A DNA stretch of 11,504 nucleotides, from the IMG/VR virus record IMGVR_UViG_3300045988_106194; one strand, written 5' to 3'. This DNA comes from a virus. The notes below the pieces were generated by a model that was given only the letters and a program-made list of their open reading frames with translations, made no database searches and was not told the origin of the DNA. The stretch's first letter is position 1; every line of letters begins with the position of its first letter. This document shows, in pieces, positions 1 through 11,504 of this stretch. A program made the translations under genes and the position numbers.

Positions 1-40
1 AAAGGTACGCTACCCACCCCCTGCCACGTTCCCCCAACGG

Positions 41-70
41 CTTTTAACATAGTTTAACACAGTTTAACAC
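41..70. repeat. Three tandem 10-bp repeats (CTTTTAACAT AGTTTAACAC AGTTTAACAC), one per helical turn, 41-70 nt from the terminus
   Basis: Read directly from the sequence. Period is exactly 10 bp and the core GTT-T-AAC is palindromic. Mirrored at 11435-11464. Confidence 0.9.
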
Positions 71-141
71 GTGGGTACTGGGTCGCCACTCTACACGGCT
101 GGCACTGGCTTGCACGGCTGGGGCGGTGTTCGTGGTGTTAA

Positions 142-157
142 TGTTCCACGTGGAACA
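142..157. repeat. 16-bp perfect palindrome TGTTCCACGTGGAACA (operator-like site)
   Basis: Self-complementary over all 16 nt with a CACGTG core. The outer arms TGTT/AACA are the same as in the recurring TGTTTAACA element. Mirrored at 11348-11363. Confidence 0.9.
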
Positions 158-195
158 CTTGCCCTGTAACTCGCTGATTTTCAACGGCTTGCACG

Positions 196-239
196 AATTT
201 ACAAATGTAAATTTACAAATGTGAATAAATTTACAAAAC
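196..239. repeat. Tandem AATTTACAAA(TGT) repeats, three copies (196-208, 210-222, 227-239)
   Basis: Read directly: AATTTACAAATGT, AATTTACAAATGT, then AAATTTACAAAAC. On the opposite strand they contain TAnnTTTG-like boxes (TACATTTG at 209-202, TAGTTTTG at 241-234). Mirrored at 11266-11309. Confidence 0.85.
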
Positions 240-342
240 TAAACTGGTGCTGTTGGTTGCTGAAAATTTTTGCAGAAACTTTCACGTGGTTGCACGTTGG
301 TTGTTAAAAATTCTAAAAATGAAAATTTTTTCTCGCTTATGT

Positions 343-373
343 GTTGTTATGTCGAAAATTGTTTGTATCTTTG
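343..373 (+). promoter_or_regulatory. Candidate inward-facing promoter in the left ITR (TATCTTTG box at 366-373, GTTG 19 nt upstream)
   Basis: TATCTTTG fits the Bacteroidota -7 consensus TAnnTTTG. The identical octamer followed by GC also lies upstream of the capsid gene (4660-4653, minus strand). It sits 48 nt upstream of the ATG at 421. Motif match only. Confidence 0.4.
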
Positions 374-420
374 CACCGTGTTTGATACACAATGAATGTT
401 TAACAAATAATATATGTAAT

Positions 421-1151: not shown

Positions 1152-1186
1152 CGGGGTACTGCTTTAATTAGTAGTACCCCGTTTTT
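1152..1186 (+). terminator. Rho-independent terminator closing the rightward two-gene unit
   Basis: CGGGGTACT (1152-1160) pairs with AGTACCCCG (1173-1181). The stem extends through G1161-T1172, C1162-G1171 and T1163-A1170 to about 12 bp, and is followed by TTTTT (1182-1186). The U-tract exists only on the plus strand. Confidence 0.8.
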
Positions 1187-3316: not shown

Positions 3317-3358
3317 TAAAAAGAACGGGCTGGCAATGTTACCACCGCCAACCCGTCC
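3317..3358 (-). terminator. Rho-independent terminator/attenuator downstream of the capsid gene
   Basis: On the minus-strand RNA, GGACGGGUUGGC pairs with GCCAGCCCGUUC (12 bp, two of them G-U), with a 12-nt loop, followed by UUUUU (plus-strand A run 3318-3322). On the plus strand the two G-U pairs become A-C mismatches, so the hairpin is strand-specific. Confidence 0.7.
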
Positions 3359-3382: not shown

Positions 3383-4588
3383 TTATGCTACAAAGAACAC
3401 AACAAAGTTTTCGTTGGTGTCGTTGAAATAGCCTGCGTCAAACTTGAAATAGTTGTTGAAGAACTCGGCTTTTGCGTTGTACGTGGTTGTTACACGTCTG
3501 TCAAGGTTGCAAACGCCCAAAGCGTCACGGTCAAACATAACGCCAAGAACGCCCGAAACGTTCACCGCTTCACCGCTGGCACTCTTTACGTTGATAGTCG
3601 AAACGCTGGCAAAGTCGTAGTTCTTACCGCTTGCCTGCCAACTCGGTACGGTTTCAGCGTTTGGCAAAAGTACCTGGTCTTTGTTGTAGGTGTCAGAATA
3701 GAGGTACGTTTGTGCTGCCTTTGCAAAGTCAGACAAAAGAACGGTGTGCAACATATCCACGGGGGTAAAACGTTCCTTTGCACCCACGTTGAACAGTGTG
3801 GAAACGGTCTGCATACGGTCGGCATACAGTCCCATAGTGTAAGACGCAAAACGGATAAATTCGGGGTTCGTAATTGCGTCCGCTGCTGTGATTGCATCGG
3901 GGTTTGCCGTTTCCCCGTCTGCTGGGTGGAACTTGTCGTTAAACAGCTTCAAAAGGTTCACGCAACGTACTGTACTGGCTGTTGCGTAGTCGGCTGCAAC
4001 TGAAGCCTTACCGCCAAACGCTGTTTTGTCTGCTTTCAGTGTTTCGGCTACCATGTTGTTAATTGTACGCATAATAAGTGCGTCCGCTTTGATAGTCATA
4101 GACTTTTCAACGGCTGAATAAATCATGCTTAAAAAGCCGTTCAACTGCTCGGCACTGCTGAAACTCTCCTTTACCTGTCTTTCGGTAATTGATACGGGCA
4201 CTTCAAAAGTTACCTTGCTGTTAAAGAACTTTGCCGTAACGGTTGGTTTGTGGAATACGTCCTGTTTGTACTCTGTACCGTCCTGCAAGTTCCACGTGTC
4301 GTTTTCGGTGGCTGCTGGAATGTCTGCTGAAATCTTTTCCAGTACGCTGCCAAACTCCCAAGCGTCCATTAAAACGCTGGGTACTTTACCGCTGTAAGGT
4401 CTGTTTACAAACACAACCTTTCCAATGTGGTTTACCAAACTTTTAACGTAGTTGTCCACTGCGTTGGCGTCGAATACTTCCGTACCCAAGTCCACAACAC
4501 CCGTTAAATCTTCCTGCACAATGTCGGTTTTGCCCAACACTTCATTTGATACGCTGTTAATAAGCGTGTAAATCTGCTTTACTTCCAT
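3383..4588 (-). CDS. Major capsid protein, phi29 gp8-like HK97 fold (401 aa), without the C-terminal Ig-like domain of gp8
   Basis: DNYVKSLVNHIGKVVFVNRP parallels phi29 gp8 [20 protein letters not shown]. The C-terminal GVMFDRDALGVCNLDRRVTTTYNAKAEFFNNYFKF parallels [35 protein letters not shown]. The order portal, small protein, capsid is canonical. Confidence 0.85.
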   Translation of the reverse strand: MEVKQIYTLINSVSNEVLGKTDIVQEDLTGVVDLGTEVFDANAVDNYVKSLVNHIGKVVFVNRPYSGKVPSVLMDAWEFGSVLEKISADIPAATENDTWNLQDGTEYKQDVFHKPTVTAKFFNSKVTFEVPVSITERQVKESFSSAEQLNGFLSMIYSAVEKSMTIKADALIMRTINNMVAETLKADKTAFGGKASVAADYATASTVRCVNLLKLFNDKFHPADGETANPDAITAADAITNPEFIRFASYTMGLYADRMQTVSTLFNVGAKERFTPVDMLHTVLLSDFAKAAQTYLYSDTYNKDQVLLPNAETVPSWQASGKNYDFASVSTINVKSASGEAVNVSGVLGVMFDRDALGVCNLDRRVTTTYNAKAEFFNNYFKFDAGYFNDTNENFVVFFVA

Positions 4589-4614
4589 GTTGTAAAATTT
4601 TTATTGTTAAACAA

Positions 4615-5181
4615 TTATTCGTATATATCCAGTGTTATTTCGCTTACAAGGGCAAAGATAATTTTTTCCTGCCACTTGTTACGCCTTAACTCCATTTCTT
4701 TAACCACGTTTTCCGATACGTTGCCCGTTGTCCCCTGTTGTTCTGTGGTACTGGTAACGGTTTCGGTGCGTGTCTTGTTCTGCTCGCTGGTGTCCCGTTC
4801 CCCGTCCGTGAACATATCATCGTTAAACGCCTTTTCTGCGTTTGTGGTGTTGTCCGTTCCCTGCTCGCTGGTGTCCCTGTTTTCGGTCTTCGTTACCTTT
4901 GCCGTGGTCGGTGTTACTGCGTTGTACTCGGTTGTCATCGCTTCCGCCTGTTTCAGCCAGTCGCCAACACGCATTGAAATGATACCACGCAAAACGGGTG
5001 CTGCCGTTGTCGCTGTCAGTCCCTCGGACAAAGTACGGTTGCCGTACTTAAACGCTGCCACTGCGTCCAGTTCTTCGGGTGGTGTACGGGCAAAAATTGT
5101 TCGGTACTCGTCCTCGAAATCGGGGTAAAAGTATTTTGCGAAAAGCCCGTTACCCTCTGTAAACAGTTCCTTGTACTTCAT
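4615..5181 (-). CDS. Hypothetical structural protein (188 aa) with a Thr/Ser/Glu/Asn-rich central region; scaffolding or head-tail adaptor candidate
   Basis: Lies between portal and capsid genes, the usual scaffold position. Its start overlaps the portal stop (ATGA). It contains an internal in-frame duplication (RDTSEQ twice). No recognisable motif. Confidence 0.55.
   Translation of the reverse strand: MKYKELFTEGNGLFAKYFYPDFEDEYRTIFARTPPEELDAVAAFKYGNRTLSEGLTATTAAPVLRGIISMRVGDWLKQAEAMTTEYNAVTPTTAKVTKTENRDTSEQGTDNTTNAEKAFNDDMFTDGERDTSEQNKTRTETVTSTTEQQGTTGNVSENVVKEMELRRNKWQEKIIFALVSEITLDIYE
4653..4660 (-). promoter_or_regulatory. Candidate late promoter -7 box (TATCTTTG) inside the 3' end of the 188-aa gene, 65 nt upstream of the capsid ATG
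   Basis: The reverse complement of 4653-4660 is TATCTTTG followed by C, the same box as in the ITRs. It is followed about 35 nt later by TTGTTTAACAAT, the same box-then-element order as in the ITR. No convincing -33 element. Confidence 0.3.
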
Positions 5182-6137
5182 TTCTTGCCCCCTTTCTTTT
5201 TACGCTGTTCCTCGGTGTCCTCATCGGTGGGGTCGTTTTCCCGTTCTTCCTCGGTTGTTACTTCCACGCCTGTAACCAAACTTTCGTAGTTTTCATGCTC
5301 CAAATACCAAGAACTACCCAAACGCACGGATATTTCAGTACCGAACATTTCGTTTACCTGTTTCAGTGCCTTTTGTCTTTCATGTAGCATATTATCCACA
5401 TACGGCAAAAGTACGTCAACATTCATAGCAACCTCGCCCGTGTTCAGTCGTTCACGCTTCATGTTGTAGTTGGCATTTAGTCCCAACTCGTTCAACATAT
5501 TAGCCTTGTAATACTGCACAAGTTCCACAAGTTGCGTTATATACTGGGTGTTGCTGGTGGCTGTTGTCTGCATATTAACGCCCTTAAAAAAGGCGTTTTC
5601 CCCGATAACGGAAAAGTCCCCGTCCAGTATCTTTTTTAAGAACTCGTCTGCACTTTGCTTTGTCTTGTCATCGCTGGCACTTATCAGCATAGTAATACGG
5701 GTTAAAATGCTGGCTGTGTTCAGTGATATAACACCGTCCGTATATAACACGGCAAATTTTCCTATAAGTGGCAAAAGGCTGTTGCCGTTGGTGTCGTTCT
5801 TGATAAAGACACCGTCCACGCCTATTTTATAGGACTTATTCAGTTTTAACGCTGGGTTCGCTACCGTGTAAATTGTCGGTCTGTTGTACGGGTCGGGTTC
5901 TCCACCTGCTGCACCCTGTAAGGCGTACAAGTCCCCGTTTACCTCTGCAAAAAAGGCGTTGCCCTCTGTCTGCAAAAGCCTTTCCAGTTCCTCGGCTGGC
6001 ACGGTGTCGGGTAAGCCCTCATATACAAGCATCGCCTGCGTTTTCGCCAACGTGTTTTCAATGAAAGACATTACCGCCATGTCCTTATTTTTAACGTAGG
6101 ACTGGAAACGCTGGTATATGTTTTCTTTTTTCTTCAT
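5178..6137 (-). CDS. Portal (head-tail connector) protein, phi29 gp10-like (about 319 aa from the ATG at 6137)
   Basis: [27 protein letters not shown] parallels gp10 [45 protein letters not shown] parallels [45 protein letters not shown] parallels [33 protein letters not shown]. The track start at 6164 is a TTG inside the promoter-like box, so I prefer [11 protein letters not shown] at 6137. TGA stop. Confidence 0.85.
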   Translation of the reverse strand: [319 protein letters not shown]

Positions 6138-6154
6138 ACGCACGTATATATAAA

Positions 6155-6177
6155 TTTTCTGCAAAAATACAAATTTA
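6155..6177 (-). promoter_or_regulatory. Candidate promoter for the structural genes in the ATPase-portal intergenic region
   Basis: The minus strand reads TAAATTTG TATTTTTG CAGAAAA, two adjacent TAnnTTTG boxes (6177-6170 and 6169-6162). The 12-mer TTTTTGCAGAAA is identical to 267-278 of the ITR. An alternative sigma70-like reading is TTGTAT, 16 nt, TATATA. The 85-nt gap is the largest non-terminal intergenic region inside the leftward array. Confidence 0.45.
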
Positions 6178-6222: not shown

Positions 6223-7359
6223 TTATTTTAGTGATATAATGTTGGTTTTTGCACTCGTTATAAGGTAATTTCGGACAATTTCGCCTACTTCGTTGTCTTG
6301 ATAGAAAACCTTATCAGTTGCGAAATATCTGGCTACCTGCTGTTCTATGTAACTGGCATTGCTTATAAGTTTGCGTTTGTAGTTCGGTTTGCCGTTCATT
6401 TCAAGTGAGTAAATAAGGCTGTTTTCCGTGTCCTTAATCGGGGTTGTTTTCATGTGTATATACGTGAAATTCTCGTTACCCACCTGTATAATGTTGCCCT
6501 GCAAAATAGTGTCGTTAAACTGGATATAATAGACAAACAAAACATCTTTCGGGGCATACTTCACGGGCAAATGTGGATATACTGCCAGTTCCCATTTACC
6601 GCCCGTTATCATCTGCAAATTTTGGTTGTCGAAACAAAAGTATTTGTTACTGGCTTTGTGCTTCACTACCGTACTGCAATACTCAACGGCTACCGTTGCC
6701 CCGTGTTCCCCGAAACGGTAAATGTCTATTGTACCCTGTTCCATTACTGGAACTTGCTTTAACCCCATTTCGGTAAAATACGGGCAATACTTGTTTACAG
6801 TGTTACCCAACATGAAAACCTTTACATCGTCCCTTTGTCGTATTATGGTGCTTAATAGGTTCATAAACAACATAAACTCATCGGGCAAATAGTAACGCCT
6901 TGTTAGGAACTCATCAAATACCACGGTCGTAACATTCGGGTAACTGCTGCTTTTTTCGTGTTCCTGCTCGGACAAACAAAAGCCGTAACAAAACGGCACA
7001 TCGCACGGGGTACGCTTGCCCGTTTCTTCGTTGTAGTACGACAAAAACCATTTGTTCGACATATAGAACACCTCGTTAAATTTCCCGTCTGTAAGGGTCG
7101 AAATAAGCCCGTTTGCCGTGTGGTTTGCAAATAGGCTTTCGGCACGTTTGCCCCTCAAATCTTCACGCCAACGCCTAATATATGCCATTTGCTTGCTCGT
7201 GTTAATAAACTGTTCCAGTCCGTAACGTAACGCTGCGTATGTCTTACCGTTGGAACGCTCGCCAAATATCAGATTATAGTCTGCGTTCTTTGCCAGTATC
7301 TCCCCCAAATCGTAAAATTTCGGGGTGTTGCTTTCCTGCTGCTGTTTCTTCTTTGCCAT
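6223..7359 (-). CDS. DNA packaging (encapsidation) ATPase, phi29 gp16-like (378 aa)
   Basis: Walker A is GERSNGKTY. MAYIRRWREDL parallels gp16 FIYVRRYKPEL. SSYPNVTTVVFDEFLTR (Walker B) parallels NAYPNVSTIVFDEFIRE. FMLGNTVNKYCPYF parallels ICLSNAVSVVNPYF. Confidence 0.9.
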   Translation of the reverse strand: MAKKKQQQESNTPKFYDLGEILAKNADYNLIFGERSNGKTYAALRYGLEQFINTSKQMAYIRRWREDLRGKRAESLFANHTANGLISTLTDGKFNEVFYMSNKWFLSYYNEETGKRTPCDVPFCYGFCLSEQEHEKSSSYPNVTTVVFDEFLTRRYYLPDEFMLFMNLLSTIIRQRDDVKVFMLGNTVNKYCPYFTEMGLKQVPVMEQGTIDIYRFGEHGATVAVEYCSTVVKHKASNKYFCFDNQNLQMITGGKWELAVYPHLPVKYAPKDVLFVYYIQFNDTILQGNIIQVGNENFTYIHMKTTPIKDTENSLIYSLEMNGKPNYKRKLISNASYIEQQVARYFATDKVFYQDNEVGEIVRNYLITSAKTNIISLK

Positions 7360-7364
7360 ATCCT

Positions 7365-9572
7365 TTAATCTTTGAATTTGATACCACGTAAATAATTAAG
7401 ATAGATAACGGACAAACTAAGGCTGTACCCTGTCGGTTCAAGGTGTACCCCCGATTTTTCGTTATAGTCGCACTCGTTGCCTAAATAGTCAAATATGCTT
7501 CCAGTTATGCCGTAATCTATATAAGTGTGAATGTTTTTGCCTGTTGCTTTCGGGGGCAAATCAAGGTAGTTTGTAAATGCGTCAAATATGCCGTTTTGCC
7601 CGTACTTCTCCATAAGGTAGGGAATAGCACATTTTTTGTTTACGCCCGAAACGGTCAAAGATACGGGGTAACTTTTGCCCCCTGTCTTCAATGCGTTTTC
7701 CTGCTCTACCATGTAGCGTTTTGCCCCCAGTGTCTTAAAACGGGTGTAACGCCCCTCATAGTCCCAAACGCCTAACAACTTCTTTACGCCTTTTATTGTT
7801 TTCGGCTGGCACATCTCAAAGGGTATGCCGTGGAACTTGCACGCCTTGCGTAACTTCTGTTCTGCCTGTTTGTTGTAGGTGTCGAAATACGCTTTGTGCT
7901 GGTCGCCCTGCATTAACTTTATACTGTCGGTGTCGCTATATATGTAATCGTCTTTCGCTTCATATATTCCCGTGAATAGGTTACGCCTTGCGTATGCCGT
8001 TACAAAGATACCCCACGGATAAAACAAAAAACGGTTCTTGCTGGAATTGTAGGTATATAGCAAGTTACTTTGCTGTTCGGGTGTCATGTGTTCGGTGTCC
8101 CAGTCCCCGTTATATACGAACTCATCACGGAGGGGGTTTGTTACACACATACCGTAACAACTGTTTAGCATTTCCTTACTGTTCAAATACTCTACTTCCA
8201 TACCGTCCACGCCCTTTAAGGTGGTTTTCTTTTCGTATAGGTGTAATATAGCCTTTACAAACTCGGTCGGCAAATATCCACGCTTGTAACAGTACATCGT
8301 ACCCACACGCATACTTTCCCAGTGGTAAAAGTTCTTTATTATGTGAAAGTCAATATCTGTTATTGTGAGGGCTATTTGTTTGGCTGCTGCCACACGTCCG
8401 TTATTTTCTACCACGTTCTGTTTTATAAAACACTTGCTGGCACTTATCGGGTTGTCCTGTGTTTCGCTGGTGAATATGTTGTTAAACTCAATATCGAAGA
8501 CACAACAGTATTTCGATATAAGAAACTCAAATTGTTTCATACTCTTTACCTGTATGCAAACGCCCTTACTCATCGGGTATTGTTCGGCTACCATTACATA
8601 AGGGTAACTGCTGGTAAAGTCGTAACTATCCACTTCGGGGGTTATCTCATCGGTGTAAATTGCGTTTGCGTGTGTGAAACCGCCTGCAAAGGCACGTTGC
8701 AACATTCTGAACTCATCTAAACCCGTTATTTGTAGTTCCTGCATTAAATTAACGTAGTCCCAGTTTGGCACGGTCTTTCCCTCTTCGTTCTTTGTGCGCA
8801 AACAGTGCTTTCGGCAATACTTGCGTACAAACCCCGTCTTCGTCAAAGGTAGGTTGCAAATGTGCTTCACTTCTTCGATACGTTCCTGTATGTAACACAT
8901 CACTACTTTTATATCATTGATACAGTAACCTATTTCGGCATTTGTAAGGGGTGTTTGTCGGTGTCTTAATAGTGAGTAATCAAGGTCGCCCGTTTTCTTC
9001 TCACACTTGTATTTAACCAACTGTTCCCCAAGTTTAGCCAGTGAGTAACCCGATAAAAGGTAACTACACCGAAACTCTATAAAACGGCTGGTAATAGCGT
9101 AAATAGGTTTTCGCAAATCAATGCTGAAAACCTTTGCCCAGTCAAACCAATTTCGTATAAACTGGAACTCATACGAAAGGTTATGCACGTAGCATATTAA
9201 CCGCCTTTTCTCACCCAGTTGTAGGGTGTCGGCTATCACTTCGCACATTTCCGTAAATTCGTCCCACGTCCTGCCAACTATCACACGCCCGTTAATACCA
9301 AACTGCCAAACGTACATTATAGCCGCCTTTTCCAGTTTTATTTTACGTTTCTGCATAAGCCTTTGCGCCTGTTCGTAGTCGTATGCCGTCCCGTCCTCAT
9401 CACGGTAAAAACTGGTTGTTTCAATGTCAAAGGAACACGGCACATTATAAAAGTGTTCCCCCTTGCTGTTGCCTGTCAAATTCTTTTCATTAACGGATAA
9501 CTCTAAAACGGTGGCTATGTCAGTCGGTTTGTATATTCGGGTATCTTTTTCATTAAACGGTATTTTCTTCAT
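7365..9572 (-). CDS. Protein-primed family B DNA polymerase (735 aa)
   Basis: Exonuclease motifs are ExoI SFDIETTS, ExoII HNLSYEFQF and ExoIII YCINDIKVV. Polymerase motifs are A DFTSSYPYV, B KEMLNSCYG, C YSDTDSIK and KxY LGAKRYM. All are in canonical order and resemble phi29 DNA polymerase motifs. ITR-bounded genome context. Confidence 0.95.
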   Translation of the reverse strand: MKKIPFNEKDTRIYKPTDIATVLELSVNEKNLTGNSKGEHFYNVPCSFDIETTSFYRDEDGTAYDYEQAQRLMQKRKIKLEKAAIMYVWQFGINGRVIVGRTWDEFTEMCEVIADTLQLGEKRRLICYVHNLSYEFQFIRNWFDWAKVFSIDLRKPIYAITSRFIEFRCSYLLSGYSLAKLGEQLVKYKCEKKTGDLDYSLLRHRQTPLTNAEIGYCINDIKVVMCYIQERIEEVKHICNLPLTKTGFVRKYCRKHCLRTKNEEGKTVPNWDYVNLMQELQITGLDEFRMLQRAFAGGFTHANAIYTDEITPEVDSYDFTSSYPYVMVAEQYPMSKGVCIQVKSMKQFEFLISKYCCVFDIEFNNIFTSETQDNPISASKCFIKQNVVENNGRVAAAKQIALTITDIDFHIIKNFYHWESMRVGTMYCYKRGYLPTEFVKAILHLYEKKTTLKGVDGMEVEYLNSKEMLNSCYGMCVTNPLRDEFVYNGDWDTEHMTPEQQSNLLYTYNSSKNRFLFYPWGIFVTAYARRNLFTGIYEAKDDYIYSDTDSIKLMQGDQHKAYFDTYNKQAEQKLRKACKFHGIPFEMCQPKTIKGVKKLLGVWDYEGRYTRFKTLGAKRYMVEQENALKTGGKSYPVSLTVSGVNKKCAIPYLMEKYGQNGIFDAFTNYLDLPPKATGKNIHTYIDYGITGSIFDYLGNECDYNEKSGVHLEPTGYSLSLSVIYLNYLRGIKFKD

Positions 9573-9576
9573 ATAC

Positions 9577-10221
9577 TTACATACTGAATTTGTCGAAATC
9601 GTCCATTATCTTTTTAACGTCCTTTTCCATAAGTTCCACCGCGTTCCAATGGTCGTCCGCTGCCTGCTCTAACTGGTTATCCAGTACGTTTGCAAGGCTT
9701 TGGGCTTCGCTCTCTATTTGGTCGCTAAGGCTTCGGGCTTCTGTTTCCAGTTCCCCCGTAAAGTCTTTGTAACGCATTAGGTAGCGTTCTACAAAATTAG
9801 TGTCATCTATGCTTTGTAACTTCTTTTGTAGGTTCTTTGCCATTAGGTCGAACTCATCGGGTTTAAGGTCGTAGGACTGCATTAAATGCGTGTTGTACTG
9901 TCTTACACCTGTTGCCGTACTGGTAGGCTGTCGCAAAAACGAAATTGCCTTTGTGTACTCCATTTTTAGGGTGTTCCAGTCGCCACGCATAGAGAATTTT
10001 GTGTAACTCTCAACATCGCCCTTTTGCAGTGCTGCAACCGCTGGACTTATTAACCCTGCGTGTTCTATGTTCTGAATACGCCTGTTTGCCCGTTGGAATA
10101 CCTTTGCAATCTCGCTTCGTGCTGCTGGACTGCTTTCCAACTGGTCTAATATCCACTTTTGTAGGGGTTGTTTAGTACTGCGAAAAACGCCCCTTGTAAA
10201 TGCTATTTTACCGCCTTTCAT
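9577..10221 (-). CDS. Terminal protein candidate (214 aa)
   Basis: Lies immediately upstream of the polymerase (4-nt spacer), as gene 3 precedes gene 2 in phi29. It has a basic N-terminal part and an acidic helical C-terminal part. FSMRGDWNTLKMEYTKAISFLRQ loosely parallels phi29 terminal protein FETRAQFNKWKEQASSFTNR. The assignment rests mainly on synteny. Confidence 0.45.
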   Translation of the reverse strand: MKGGKIAFTRGVFRSTKQPLQKWILDQLESSPAARSEIAKVFQRANRRIQNIEHAGLISPAVAALQKGDVESYTKFSMRGDWNTLKMEYTKAISFLRQPTSTATGVRQYNTHLMQSYDLKPDEFDLMAKNLQKKLQSIDDTNFVERYLMRYKDFTGELETEARSLSDQIESEAQSLANVLDNQLEQAADDHWNAVELMEKDVKKIMDDFDKFSM

Positions 10222-10242
10222 GTCTTGTAATCTCGTTTAATA

Positions 10243-10272
10243 ACAAAAGGGGGTAAGCGTGTACCCACCCCC
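10243..10272 (-). terminator. Rho-independent terminator/attenuator between the 120-aa gene and the terminal-protein candidate; also an internal near-copy of the genome terminus
   Basis: The minus-strand RNA GGGGGUGG pairs with UUACCCCC (6 Watson-Crick plus 2 G-U pairs), with an 8-nt loop, followed by UUUUGUU. On the plus strand, 10246-10273 AAAGGGGGTAAGCGTGTACCCACCCCCT resembles the terminal 22 nt AAAGGTACGCTACCCACCCCCT and shares an exact 12-mer. Confidence 0.7.
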
Positions 10273-10296
10273 TTATAAGTAAGACAATACAGTAAA

Positions 10297-10659
10297 TTAC
10301 AAGTCCACAAACGAAACATTGTAACACTTCTTTCCGTGGCTCTCATACTCGTAGATAGTGTAACCTACTTTGCCGTTTTTAATCGCTTCAACGGCTTCAC
10401 TGTCTGCCAGTATTTCACAGGCTGTTTCTGCCATGTGTGAAGGTAGGTTTACTAACTTCTTCGCTTCTGCGTCAATGATAACGGGGCTATCGCCTAAACC
10501 GTTCTTGCTGGCATGTACGAAAATGCCGTTAATCGGGTGTACTACATCGTTGCCCCCGTTGTCCTTACTGTTGAAAATGTCTGCCAACTTGATATACTCA
10601 AAGTTGCTGGTGTCGATACCGAAACCGACTTTGTTAAACTTACTTGCAAATGTTGCCAT
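10297..10659 (-). CDS. Hypothetical early protein (120 aa); candidate abundant DNA-binding protein (SSB or dsDNA-binding)
   Basis: Occupies the position of phi29 genes 5/6, upstream of the terminal protein and polymerase genes. Its 5' leader is nearly identical to that of the capsid gene, and its own terminator follows. No motif I can name. Confidence 0.55.
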   Translation of the reverse strand: MATFASKFNKVGFGIDTSNFEYIKLADIFNSKDNGGNDVVHPINGIFVHASKNGLGDSPVIIDAEAKKLVNLPSHMAETACEILADSEAVEAIKNGKVGYTIYEYESHGKKCYNVSFVDL

Positions 10660-10670
10660 AGTTGTAAACT

Positions 10671-10690
10671 TTATTTGTTAAACATTCATT
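10671..10690 (-). promoter_or_regulatory. Internal copy of the ITR-boundary element AATGAATGTTTAACAAATAA, 11 nt upstream of the 120-aa gene ATG
   Basis: The reverse complement of 10671-10690 is identical over 20 nt to 391-410 at the left ITR junction. It overlaps the last codons (SMNV stop) of the 64-aa ORF. Confidence 0.7.
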
Positions 10691-10872
10691 GAATTGTCTT
10701 TCTGTTCGGTGGCTGTGAACTCTAAAAGCCACTTTTTGAAACGGTTTATCTTCATAACCGCTTTGTCATTCTTGCATACCTCGTTTGTAGTAATAAGGTG
10801 GTTCAGTGCAGCCAGTACCTCAAAACTGTACTCGTCAAACGGGTTGCGTACTTCGTTGTTATTCTCTGCCAT
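10678..10872 (-). CDS. Hypothetical small early protein (64 aa)
   Basis: ATG start 18 nt after the upstream stop, TAA stop, co-directional and tightly packed. No transmembrane segment or recognisable motif. Confidence 0.5.
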   Translation of the reverse strand: MAENNNEVRNPFDEYSFEVLAALNHLITTNEVCKNDKAVMKINRFKKWLLEFTATEQKDNSMNV

Positions 10873-10890
10873 TTTCTTATAAATTAAATG

Positions 10891-11109
10891 TTAATCAATG
10901 TTCGTTACTGCGTTCAGCGCGTGAATTATTTGCCCCGTGTACGGGTCAAAATGCACCGTTTCGCAAAACGCCTTTACATACTCGGCTTTGTAGCGTACCA
11001 ACGTCAAAGTAATTTCACGTTGTGCGTTGTAGTCCTTTGGAACTACCTGTTTACCATTCAAGTAATAAACGTGTTCATTGTTCATATACCATAACTTTTT
11101 GTTAAACAT
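10891..11109 (-). CDS. Hypothetical small early protein (72 aa; alternative start at 11085 giving MNNEHVYY...)
   Basis: First ORF downstream of the right ITR promoter. Its first four codons (ATG TTT AAC AAA) lie inside the ITR. TAA stop. No recognisable motif. Confidence 0.5.
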   Translation of the reverse strand: MFNKKLWYMNNEHVYYLNGKQVVPKDYNAQREITLTLVRYKAEYVKAFCETVHFDPYTGQIIHALNAVTNID

Positions 11110-11504
11110 TCATTGTGTATCAAACACGGTGCAAAGATACAAACAATTTTCGACATAACAACACATAAGCGAGAAAAAATTTTCATTTTTAGAATTTTTA
11201 ACAACCAACGTGCAACCACGTGAAAGTTTCTGCAAAAATTTTCAGCAACCAACAGCACCAGTTTAGTTTTGTAAATTTATTCACATTTGTAAATTTACAT
11301 TTGTAAATTCGTGCAAGCCGTTGAAAATCAGCGAGTTACAGGGCAAGTGTTCCACGTGGAACATTAACACCACGAACACCGCCCCAGCCGTGCAAGCCAG
11401 TGCCAGCCGTGTAGAGTGGCGACCCAGTACCCACGTGTTAAACTGTGTTAAACTATGTTAAAAGCCGTTGGGGGAACGTGGCAGGGGGTGGGTAGCGTAC
11501 CTTT
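11098..11504. repeat. Right inverted terminal repeat (407 bp)
   Basis: Exact reverse complement of 1-407 by manual comparison. It carries mirrored copies of the 10-bp repeats (11435-11464), the palindrome (11348-11363) and the AATTTACAAA repeats (11266-11309). Confidence 0.93.
11132..11139 (-). promoter_or_regulatory. Right-ITR copy of the inward-facing TATCTTTG promoter box
   Basis: Mirror image of 366-373. It lies 23 nt upstream of the ATG at 11109. Confidence 0.4.

What the first reader, a model, noticed from the sequence alone, without database searches (positions are those of the whole stretch)
10243..10273. Internal near-copy of the genome terminus embedded in the terminator upstream of the terminal-protein candidate gene
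The plus strand at 10246-10273, AAAGGGGGTAAGCGTGTACCCACCCCCT, aligns with the terminal 22 nt AAAGGTACGCTACCCACCCCCT. Both have the same AAAGG start, a GGTA..TACC mini-hairpin and an exact 12-mer TACCCACCCCCT (11-22 versus 10262-10273). A given 12-mer recurring by chance in 11.5 kb is very unlikely (order of 1 in 1000). The copy sits exactly between the putative abundant DNA-binding protein gene and the candidate terminal-protein and polymerase genes, where it also forms a terminator hairpin on the transcript. One possibility is that terminal protein or polymerase binds an origin mimic and so regulates read-through into its own genes. Others are a donor or relic sequence for terminus repair or ITR evolution, or a breakpoint that would give a mini-replicon of about 1.26 kb (10246-11504) with origin-like ends.
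Basis: partly seen in the sequence, partly recalled or inferred. Interest (0 to 1): 0.7.

Follow-up and report, generated by a model that had tools for sequence, protein, structure and literature searches.

The report
Terminator hairpin that partly resembles genome end
The sequence is an ordinary transcription-terminator hairpin between a small gut phage's single-stranded-DNA-binding-protein gene and its replication genes, and its 12-base identity with the genome end is not kept by close relatives, so it is probably not a working copy of the replication origin.

Summary
TACCCACCCCCT occurs at 11-22 and 10262-10273, inside a stem-loop at 10247-10274. The window is a complete 11.5-kb phi29-like podophage genome from the human gut, with 407-bp inverted terminal repeats.

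On the minus (coding) strand the site is a 12-pair RNA hairpin followed by UUUUGUUAUU. It lies 22 nt after the stop of a 120-aa protein that models as a phi29-type SSB, and 25 nt before the candidate terminal-protein and PolB genes. A hairpin with a T-rich tail sits at this position in almost every relative clade examined, with unrelated stem sequences. Sense RNA folds better than antisense in 166 of 168 variants. It is therefore an intrinsic terminator or attenuator, like the phi29 terminator between genes 6/5 and 3/2.

The origin-mimic idea is not supported:
- Three genomes with identical termini carry three hairpin variants; only the window type keeps the 12-mer, and one variant has a compensatory stem change that breaks it.
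- The family-conserved origin core, GGTACGCTAC, is missing from the internal copy.
- Terminus and hairpin do not co-vary within clades.

One oddity remains. A second clade shares a different 12-mer with its own terminus, on the opposite strand (19 of 48 genomes). Interest is low.

The parts
10247..10274 (-). Stem-loop of the intrinsic terminator/attenuator. Sense RNA is AAGGGGGUGGGU-ACAC-GCUUACCCCCUU: 12 pairs including G-U pairs, with a 4-nt loop.
   Evidence: Terminator scan. RNA fold of 10225-10300(-): -23.9 kcal/mol, z = -3.59, 0 of 200 shuffles as stable. A hairpin at the same site in relatives.
10237..10246 (-). T-rich tail after the stem. Sense strand reads TTGTTATTAA; together with the two stem T's the RNA reads UUUUGUUAUU.
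   Evidence: T-rich tails follow the hairpin in every clade that has one.
10262..10273 (+). The 12-mer TACCCACCCCCT, identical to terminus positions 11-22. On the sense strand it is the 5' arm plus the first loop/upper-stem bases (AGGGGGTGGGTA).
   Evidence: It is not conserved in close relatives that have the same terminus.
1..22 (+). Left genome terminus (protein-primed origin region). Positions 1-13 (AAAGGTACGCTAC) are conserved in the nearest clades; positions 14-25 are specific to the window clade.
   Evidence: Adapter-abutted ends in relatives.
11483..11504 (-). Right genome terminus, the same sequence as the left terminus by the ITR.
1..407 (.). Left arm of the perfect 407-bp inverted terminal repeat; the right arm is 11098-11504.
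   Evidence: I1: 407 nt, 100% complementary.
10297..10659 (-). p120: single-stranded-DNA-binding protein of the phi29-like podophage type. It is the gene that the hairpin follows.
   Evidence: AF2 model pLDDT 78.8. BFVD best hit is Staphylococcus phage JBug18 SSB (E 1.8e-8, TMq 0.69), followed by podovirus and Clostridium phage susfortuna proteins. PDB hits are weak but led by OB-fold SSBs. No Pfam or PHROG hit.
9577..10221 (-). 214-aa candidate terminal protein, directly upstream of PolB. The function is inferred from position only.
   Evidence: Conserved gene immediately 5' of PolB in all relatives and in Astrithrvirus phages. No sequence match to solved TPs or to Pfam/PHROGs.
7365..9572 (-). 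Protein-primed family-B DNA polymerase.
   Evidence: Pfam DNA_pol_B_2, E 6.5e-12. 45% identity to the Salmonella phage Astrid DNA polymerase.
10672..10686 (-). Motif AATGTTTAACAAATA, 13 nt upstream of the p120 start codon. It is also found upstream of the MCP gene, ORF 424-753 and p72, and is a candidate promoter or leader element for highly expressed genes.
   Evidence: 5 matches against 0.61 expected, and 0 of 200 shuffles reach 5.

Best explanation
The feature is a Rho-independent (intrinsic) transcription terminator, most likely a partial one (an attenuator), on the minus-strand transcript. It ends the short, highly expressed early unit that finishes with the SSB gene p120. It limits read-through into the genes needed in lower amounts: the candidate terminal protein and the protein-primed DNA polymerase.

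It acts as an RNA hairpin: a 12-pair stem with G-U pairs, a 4-nt loop and a U-rich tail. It does not act as a DNA copy of the origin. The 12-nt identity with genome positions 11-22 belongs to one sub-lineage. It combines the G5/C5 stem arm (ACCCCCT, which the terminus also carries) with five adjacent bases (TACCC). Selection does not maintain it.

Shown here: the hairpin, its tail, its position, its structural conservation and strand asymmetry across relatives, the SSB-like fold of p120, and the PolB identity. Inferred: actual termination, its partial efficiency, and the terminal-protein function of the 214-aa gene.
For: 1. Anatomy. The site has a 12-pair stem, a 4-nt loop and the tail TTGTTATTAA. 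The RNA fold gives -23.9 kcal/mol, z = -3.59. It lies in the 75-nt gap between the p120 stop (10297) and the TP-candidate start (10221), on the coding strand.

2. Conservation of structure, not sequence. A stable hairpin with a T-rich tail sits between the p120 homologue and the TP homologue in every clade with a known terminus. These are the window clade, L006, the large sister clade, L247 and clades C, D, E, F and L376. It is also present in L249 and L253, whose ends were not recovered. L248 is the exception, with only a 27-nt gap. The stem sequences are unrelated, for example GGGCGCACTTA/TAGGTGTGCCC, CGGGGGTAAACAG/TTGTTGCCCCCG and GGGAGGGGG/CTCCCTCCC.

3. Strand asymmetry. Sense RNA is more stable than antisense in 166 of 168 unique intergenic sequences (mean -24.7 against -15.9 kcal/mol, Wilcoxon p = 4e-29). 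This is expected for an RNA element that uses G-U pairs and not for a duplex DNA site.

4. Compensatory change. L003 and L173 have GGGGGA...TCCCCC where the window has GGGGGT...ACCCCC. The stem is kept and the 12-mer is broken, while the terminus is unchanged.

5. Gene logic. p120 matches SSBs of phi29-like phages, and PolB follows the TP candidate. In phi29 itself, a Rho-independent terminator inside gene 4 lies downstream of genes 6 and 5 (DBP, SSB). It is thought to favour p5/p6 production over the downstream genes (review PMC11476376).

6. No fine-scale co-variation of hairpin and terminus.
Against: Termination has not been measured. The generic terminator scan finds no more candidates in this genome than in shuffles (14 against 13.9), so the scan alone proves nothing. 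In some clades the tail is only moderately U-rich (UAUUUAAUAU). The host is not identified, and terminator rules may differ if it is a Bacteroidales bacterium, as a review suggests for one related gut genome.

The identity with the terminus is statistically unusual (p about 0.008-0.025 in this genome). A second clade independently shares a different 12-mer, ACCCCTATTTAA, between its terminus (positions 16-27) and the 3' arm plus tail of its hairpin. A permutation of clade labels gives p = 0.03 (local alignment score) and 0.017 (longest shared word) for own-terminus against own-hairpin similarity. Pure chance is therefore not a fully comfortable account of the resemblance.
Confidence: 0.75

Rival explanations
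1. Origin mimic. Terminal protein and/or polymerase bind the terminus-like sequence in the DNA or the transcript, and so tune read-through into their own genes.
For: The exact 12-mer is shared with terminus positions 11-22, and the site lies just upstream of the TP and PolB genes. Own-clade similarity between terminus and hairpin is above the cross-clade background in the window clade and in the large sister clade.
Against: The family-conserved origin core (positions 4-13, GGTACGCTAC) is absent from the internal copy. Close relatives with an identical terminus have hairpins matching only 11/12 and 10/12, and the changes follow stem pairing. The sister clade's match is on the opposite strand, covers terminus positions 16-27 only, and is exact in just 19 of 48 genomes, because the terminus varies while the hairpin does not. 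Clades C, D, F and L376 show nothing above background. C-run lengths do not correlate (rho -0.05). From established knowledge of phi29 and adenovirus, protein-primed origins work only at a DNA end.
Confidence: 0.05
2. Relic of a sequence exchange. An ancient copy-choice or recombination event moved about 9-12 nt between the terminator hairpin and the variable part of the terminus (positions 14-25). The similarity has since drifted neutrally and has no present function.
For: The part of the window-clade terminus that differs from all other clades (CCACCCCCT, positions 14-22) is exactly the part that matches the hairpin. All window-clade hairpin variants remain at 10/12 or better, as expected for decay from one ancestral identity. 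A second 12-mer coincidence at the same hairpin occurs in the sister clade. The clade-label permutation gives p about 0.02-0.03.
Against: There are at most two events, both in one PolB super-clade. Both sequences are low-complexity C-runs followed by T, which raises the chance background: cross-clade longest shared words are already 5-7 nt. No flanking homology marks a crossover. No mechanism is known that copies from an internal hairpin 1.2 kb away to position 14 of a protein-primed end.
Confidence: 0.12
3. The hairpin is mainly an mRNA 3'-end stabiliser or processing site for the SSB message, or a translational-coupling barrier, rather than a site where RNA polymerase terminates.
For: This reading shares the anatomy, position and sense-strand asymmetry of the best explanation. 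In several clades the tail is interrupted by A's.
Against: In the window the stem is followed at once by UUUUGUUAUU, the classical terminator layout. The two roles are not exclusive.
Confidence: 0.08

Closest known systems
The phi29 early-operon internal Rho-independent terminator, located within gene 4 and known from the literature as TA1
   Same: It is a hairpin terminator placed after the abundant DNA-binding-protein genes (p6 DBP, p5 SSB) and before the terminal-protein and DNA-polymerase genes of a protein-primed podophage. It is thought to favour production of p5/p6 (review PMC11476376). Here the hairpin follows the SSB-like p120 and precedes the TP candidate and PolB.
   Different: There is no sequence homology. 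Here the terminator is intergenic rather than inside a regulator gene. In this phage the early and late genes are all on one strand, so read-through continues into the packaging and capsid genes. Termination has not been measured here.
Terminal replication origins of protein-primed phages, such as phi29 with 5'-AAAGTA and a 3'-TTT used for sliding back
   Same: The true ends of this genome start with AAAGGTA. They lie in inverted terminal repeats and are conserved over the first 13 nt in the nearest clades. The internal copy shares AAAGG and positions 11-22.
   Different: The internal copy is not at a DNA end. It lacks the conserved core GGTACGCTAC as a contiguous block and is not conserved in relatives. 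phi29-type origins are only known to work at ends; this last point rests on established knowledge and was not tested here.
Astrithrvirus phages (Salmonella phage Astrid, Acinetobacter phage Phanie), the closest cultured relatives
   Same: Genomes of 11.6-11.9 kb, with the same gene order TP candidate, PolB, gp16, connector, scaffold-like gene, MCP and tail. PolB is 44-45% identical.
   Different: They have no p120 SSB gene and no intergenic hairpin upstream of the TP candidate; in Astrid a 73-aa ORF overlaps the TP-candidate start. Astrid's annotated terminal repeat is 83 bp and its record starts ATTTTTATGA.

Membership tests
Rho-independent (intrinsic) transcription terminator | G+C-rich stem-loop on the transcript | tested here: met
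   12 pairs (6 G-C, plus G-U) and a 4-nt loop. Fold energy -23.9 kcal/mol for the 76-nt region, z = -3.59.
Rho-independent (intrinsic) transcription terminator | U-rich tract immediately 3' of the stem | tested here: met
   UUUUGUUAUU in the window. T-rich tails are present in every clade that has the hairpin, though some are interrupted by A's.
Rho-independent (intrinsic) transcription terminator | Placed downstream of a stop codon, on the same strand as the gene | tested here: met
   The stem starts 22 nt after the p120 stop codon, on the minus strand, in a 75-nt intergenic gap.
Rho-independent (intrinsic) transcription terminator | Structure conserved in relatives through sequence change, and asymmetric between strands | tested here: met
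   Unrelated stems occupy the same site in every clade with a known terminus. There is a compensatory T-A to A-T change in L003/L173. Sense RNA is more stable than antisense in 166 of 168 variants. A MAFFT-based covariation count failed because the G-runs misalign.
Rho-independent (intrinsic) transcription terminator | Transcripts actually end there | not testable with these tools
   This needs Term-seq, 3' RACE or in vitro transcription.
Protein-primed replication origin, or a functional copy of one | Located at a physical DNA end | tested here: not met
   The site is internal, 1231 nt from the right end. None of the examined contigs ends or carries an adapter junction at it, whereas 37 ends have an adapter abutting AAAGGTA. 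Reads were not examined.
Protein-primed replication origin, or a functional copy of one | Carries the family-conserved terminal core (AAAGGTACGCTAC, positions 1-13) | tested here: not met
   The internal copy reads AAAGGGGGTAAGCGTG before the 12-mer. Only AAAGG and scattered bases match, and AAAGG is the complement of the stem end plus T-tract.
Protein-primed replication origin, or a functional copy of one | The copy co-varies with the terminus in relatives | tested here: not met
   No covariation within clades. Across nine clades only two exceed background, and they do so in opposite orientations. The overall permutation gives p = 0.02-0.03, so a weak residual signal remains.
Protein-primed replication origin, or a functional copy of one | Bound by terminal protein and polymerase | not testable with these tools
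   This needs EMSA or footprinting.
phi29-type early operon with an attenuator between the SSB/DBP genes and the TP/DNAP genes | The upstream gene encodes an SSB or DBP | tested here: met
   The p120 model matches the Staphylococcus phage JBug18 SSB (E 1.8e-8, TMq 0.69) and other small podovirus proteins. There is no sequence-level family hit.
phi29-type early operon with an attenuator between the SSB/DBP genes and the TP/DNAP genes | The downstream genes encode terminal protein and protein-primed PolB | tested here: inconclusive
   PolB is confirmed (Pfam DNA_pol_B_2). The 214-aa protein is a TP by position and conservation only.

The most novel reading that the evidence does not exclude
The resemblance between the terminator hairpin and the variable part of the genome terminus (positions about 11-27) may be real rather than chance. 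It is seen as a 12-mer in the window clade (antisense) and as a different 12-mer in the sister clade (sense). It could reflect occasional copying between an internal hairpin and the ends of a protein-primed linear genome. Alternatively, one phage protein (SSB, TP or polymerase) may recognise an ACCCC(C)T-type element at both places and so couple replication-protein dosage to the origins.
Probability: 0.07. Interest if true: 0.6.

Novelty: new member of a known kind. Interest (0 to 1): 0.2.

Why it matters
If the best explanation holds, the finding adds one routine annotation. A conserved terminator or attenuator separates the SSB gene from the terminal-protein and polymerase genes in a very large, uncultured family of small phi29-like gut phages. 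About 7,500 PolB relatives lie at E <= 1e-10. The arrangement mirrors the expression logic of phi29. It helps to annotate these genomes and to design expression studies, but it opens no new question.

Only the minority reading would be of wider interest, namely sequence exchange or shared recognition between an internal hairpin and protein-primed termini. That reading bears on how the ends of such genomes evolve.

Tried and rejected
1. Whole-window megablast against GenBank phages found no match.

2. An exact scan of IMG/VR for the 14-mer AAAGGTACGCTACC returned 85 stretches. Only one belonged to a relative, the one already held as L006. A 14-mer is too short for this collection.

3. Look-ups of PolB and p120 variants yielded only one new genome with a recognisable end (L247). 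They did add hairpin variants.

4. Pfam, PHROGs and PDB sequence searches for p120 and the TP candidate gave nothing usable. The armadillo-repeat and apolipoprotein hits for the TP profile are low-complexity helical matches and were disregarded.

5. The PDB fold search for p120 had no hit at E <= 0.001, though OB-fold SSBs led the list. The BFVD search settled the question.

6. RNAalifold on a MAFFT alignment of window-clade hairpins misregistered the G-runs and showed no compensatory pairs. The compensatory change is visible only by direct inspection.

7. Rfam (E <= 1) and tRNA scans of the window found no hits. In particular, no phi29 pRNA family match was found.

8. I tested whether C-run length in the terminus tracks C-run length in the hairpin arm. 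It does not: rho = -0.05 over genomes, 0.44 (p = 0.23) over clade means, and none within clades.

9. I considered a promoter overlapping the hairpin, since TAACTTTG lies just 5' of the stem in the sister clade. It is not conserved in the window clade or in clade D, so I dropped it.

10. The terminal GGTA..TACC mini-hairpin is not more stable than in shuffles.

Full report
**What the window is**

The 11,504-bp window is a complete linear genome with perfect 407-bp inverted terminal repeats. Almost all its genes are on the minus strand. Pfam identifies a protein-primed family-B DNA polymerase (7365-9572), a phi29 gp16-type packaging ATPase (6223-7359), a phi29-type connector (5178-6164) and a phi29-type major capsid protein (3383-4588).

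The closest cultured relatives are the 11.6-11.9-kb Astrithrvirus phages of Gram-negative hosts, Salmonella phage Astrid and Acinetobacter phage Phanie. Their PolB is 44-45% identical and the gene order is the same. Uncultured relatives are very numerous: 7,546 PolB homologues at E <= 1e-10. The metagenome contigs whose records name a source are human gut assemblies.

In 37 contig ends of relatives, a sequencing-adapter tail abuts AAAGGTA directly. AAAGGTAC... is therefore the true physical end. It resembles the phi29 end 5'-AAAGTA.

**The observation**

In dinucleotide-preserving shuffles of the non-ITR body, a shared word of 12 nt or more with the terminal 22 nt arose in 0.8% of trials. With the terminal 40 nt it arose in 2.5%.

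Part of the gapped alignment is automatic. The internal AAAGG is the complement of the stem's last C's plus the terminator's T-tract. The internal GGGTA..TACCC is the upper stem. The terminal 'mini-hairpin' is no more stable than in shuffles (z = 0.10).

**What the site is**

Read on the coding (minus) strand, 10274-10247 is AAGGGGGUGGGU-ACAC-GCUUACCCCCUU, a 12-pair stem that uses G-U pairs. It is followed by UUGUUAUUAA. The 76-nt region folds at -23.9 kcal/mol, z = -3.59. The stem begins 22 nt after the stop codon of a 120-aa gene (10297-10659) and ends 25 nt before the start of a 214-aa gene (9577-10221), which abuts PolB.

The 120-aa protein has no sequence-family hit. An AlphaFold model built from 24 homologues (pLDDT 78.8) matches the single-stranded-DNA-binding protein of the phi29-like Staphylococcus phage JBug18 (E 1.8e-8, TM 0.69). 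It also matches proteins of other small podoviruses, and the weak PDB hits are led by OB-fold SSBs.

The 214-aa protein is conserved directly upstream of PolB in all relatives and in Astrid and Phanie. It has no detectable similarity to solved terminal proteins, so its role is inferred from position only.

The layout is therefore SSB gene, hairpin with U-tail, terminal-protein candidate, polymerase. In phi29, a Rho-independent terminator inside gene 4 lies after genes 6 and 5 and is thought to favour p5/p6 production (PMC11476376). The present element is the functional analogue.

**Comparative evidence for an RNA terminator**

I gathered about 290 related loci from IMG/VR, ENA, JGI and Logan assemblies.
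- A stable hairpin with a T-rich tail lies between the SSB homologue and the TP homologue in every clade with a known terminus, and in the L249 and L253 lineages. One lineage, L248, has only a 27-nt gap and no hairpin.
- The stem sequences are unrelated between clades.
- Across 168 distinct intergenic sequences, the sense RNA is more stable than the antisense RNA in 166 (mean -24.7 against -15.9 kcal/mol). This is the signature of G-U pairing on a transcript, not of a duplex DNA site.
- Astrithrvirus phages lack both the SSB gene and the hairpin.

**Comparative evidence against a maintained copy of the terminus**

The window clade has 17 members (the window and 16 relatives, 95-99% TP identity), of which 16 retain the hairpin region. 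They carry at least six hairpin variants. Three genomes have known ends, and those ends are identical to each other:
- The window matches its hairpin 12/12.
- L003 matches 11/12, because the stem pair next to the G5 run changed from T-A to A-T. This is a compensatory change that keeps the stem and breaks the 12-mer.
- L171 matches 10/12.

The loop bases inside the 12-mer also drift (GGGTA to GAGTA).

The internal copy lacks the origin core that is invariant in the nearest clades (positions 4-13, GGTACGCTAC).

In the large sister clade (PolB about 77% identical), the hairpin 3' arm and tail are invariant (ACCCCTATTTAAT). Terminus positions 19-22 are polymorphic (CCCCTA, CCCATA, CCCCTT, CCCACA, CCCTTA, CCCTTT).

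C-run lengths in terminus and hairpin do not correlate. No contig end or adapter junction falls at the site.

**A residual oddity**

In that sister clade the commonest terminus, AAAGGTACGCTACTGACCCCTATTTAAC, shares an exact 12-mer with the same hairpin. The 12-mer is ACCCCTATTTAA, at terminus positions 16-27. Here the match is on the sense strand (3' arm plus tail) and is exact in 19 of 48 genomes.

In a matrix of termini against hairpins for nine clades, only the window clade and this clade exceed the cross-clade background. L006 and L247 carry sister-type hairpins. Permuting clade labels gives p = 0.03 (alignment score) and 0.017 (longest shared word). On a PolB tree these clades form one super-clade, so there are at most two independent events.

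The part of the window-clade terminus that differs from all other clades (CCACCCCCT) is exactly the part that matches its hairpin. Both partners are C-runs followed by T, which raises the chance background to 5-7 nt. The two matches have opposite orientations and cover different terminal positions.

I read this as chance helped by low complexity, or at most as a relic of old sequence exchange. It is not a working element, and I record it as unexplained.

**Verdict**

The hairpin is a conserved intrinsic terminator or attenuator after the SSB gene (confidence about 0.75). Binding and subgenomic ends remain untested. The feature is a new member of a known kind, and its interest is low.

Noticed in passing
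L037 about 1278-1289 and other sister-clade loci (for example L043); terminus positions 16-27 of the same genomes: A different 12-mer, ACCCCTATTTAA, is shared between the terminus and the 3' arm plus tail of the homologous terminator hairpin. It is on the sense strand and exact in 19 of 48 genomes. Together with the window's antisense 12-mer, this makes two such coincidences at the same hairpin.
   Followed up: partly
window 143-156 (mirrored in the right ITR at 11349-11362): A perfect 14-nt palindrome, GTTCCACGTGGAAC, lies inside the ITR. A near-identical TGTTTCACGTGGAACA is visible in the ITRs of many relatives. It looks like a conserved protein-binding site.
   Followed up: no
window 43-68 (TTTAAC at 43, 53 and 63), mirrored in the right ITR: There are three TTTAAC(A) repeats with a 10-nt spacing near the terminus. 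Other clades keep TTTAAC(G/A)TTTCCCAAC at positions about 22-38 of their ends, so this is probably part of the origin region.
   Followed up: no
window 395-409 (+), 4601-4615 (-), 10672-10686 (-), 11096-11110 (-): The motif AATGTTTAACAA(A/T)(A/T)A lies about 6-15 nt upstream of the starts of ORF 424-753, the MCP gene and the SSB gene p120 (5 matches against 0.61 expected). At p72 it overlaps the listed ATG at 11109, so the real p72 start is probably the downstream ATG at about 11085.
   Followed up: partly
L029, L048, L050, L055, L282, L293, L302, L305 and others: first 10-45 bases of the contigs: Public IMG/VR contigs of this phage family still carry Illumina adapter tails (…CTCTTCCGATCT) fused directly to AAAGGTA. 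A few contig ends instead carry Nextera adapter sequence (…AGATGTGTATAAGAGACAG). This is useful proof of the exact physical ends, but it is also adapter contamination in the database.
   Followed up: partly
window 10990-10999 (minus-strand sense), inside the p72 gene: A 10-mer, GGTACGCTAC, identical to terminus positions 4-13 (the conserved origin core) occurs inside the p72 gene. A match of this length is close to chance expectation, and I did not examine it in relatives.
   Followed up: no
Termini of relatives (for example L007, L019, L026, L079, L284, L333, L360): Within each clade the first 13 or so terminal bases are nearly invariant (AAAGGTACGCTAC, AAAGGTACACAAG, AAAGGTATACAAA), while positions about 14-22 are highly polymorphic. 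This suggests that only the first dozen bases, plus the TTTAAC..CCCAAC block, are constrained.
   Followed up: partly
Sister-clade loci, about 20 nt upstream of the terminator stem (for example L012 intergenic AAAGTTATGTTTAACTTT): A second small hairpin (AAAGTTA-TGTT-TAACTTT), containing the GTTTAAC motif, sits immediately 5' of the terminator in the sister clade. It is absent from the window clade.
   Followed up: no
window 1152-1181 (+) and 3323-3358 (-): There are two further strong terminator-like hairpins. One lies between the convergent plus-strand and minus-strand gene blocks (CGGGGTACTGC...GTAGTACCCCG plus a T-run). The other follows the MCP gene. They would serve as internal controls for any terminus-similarity test.
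   Followed up: no
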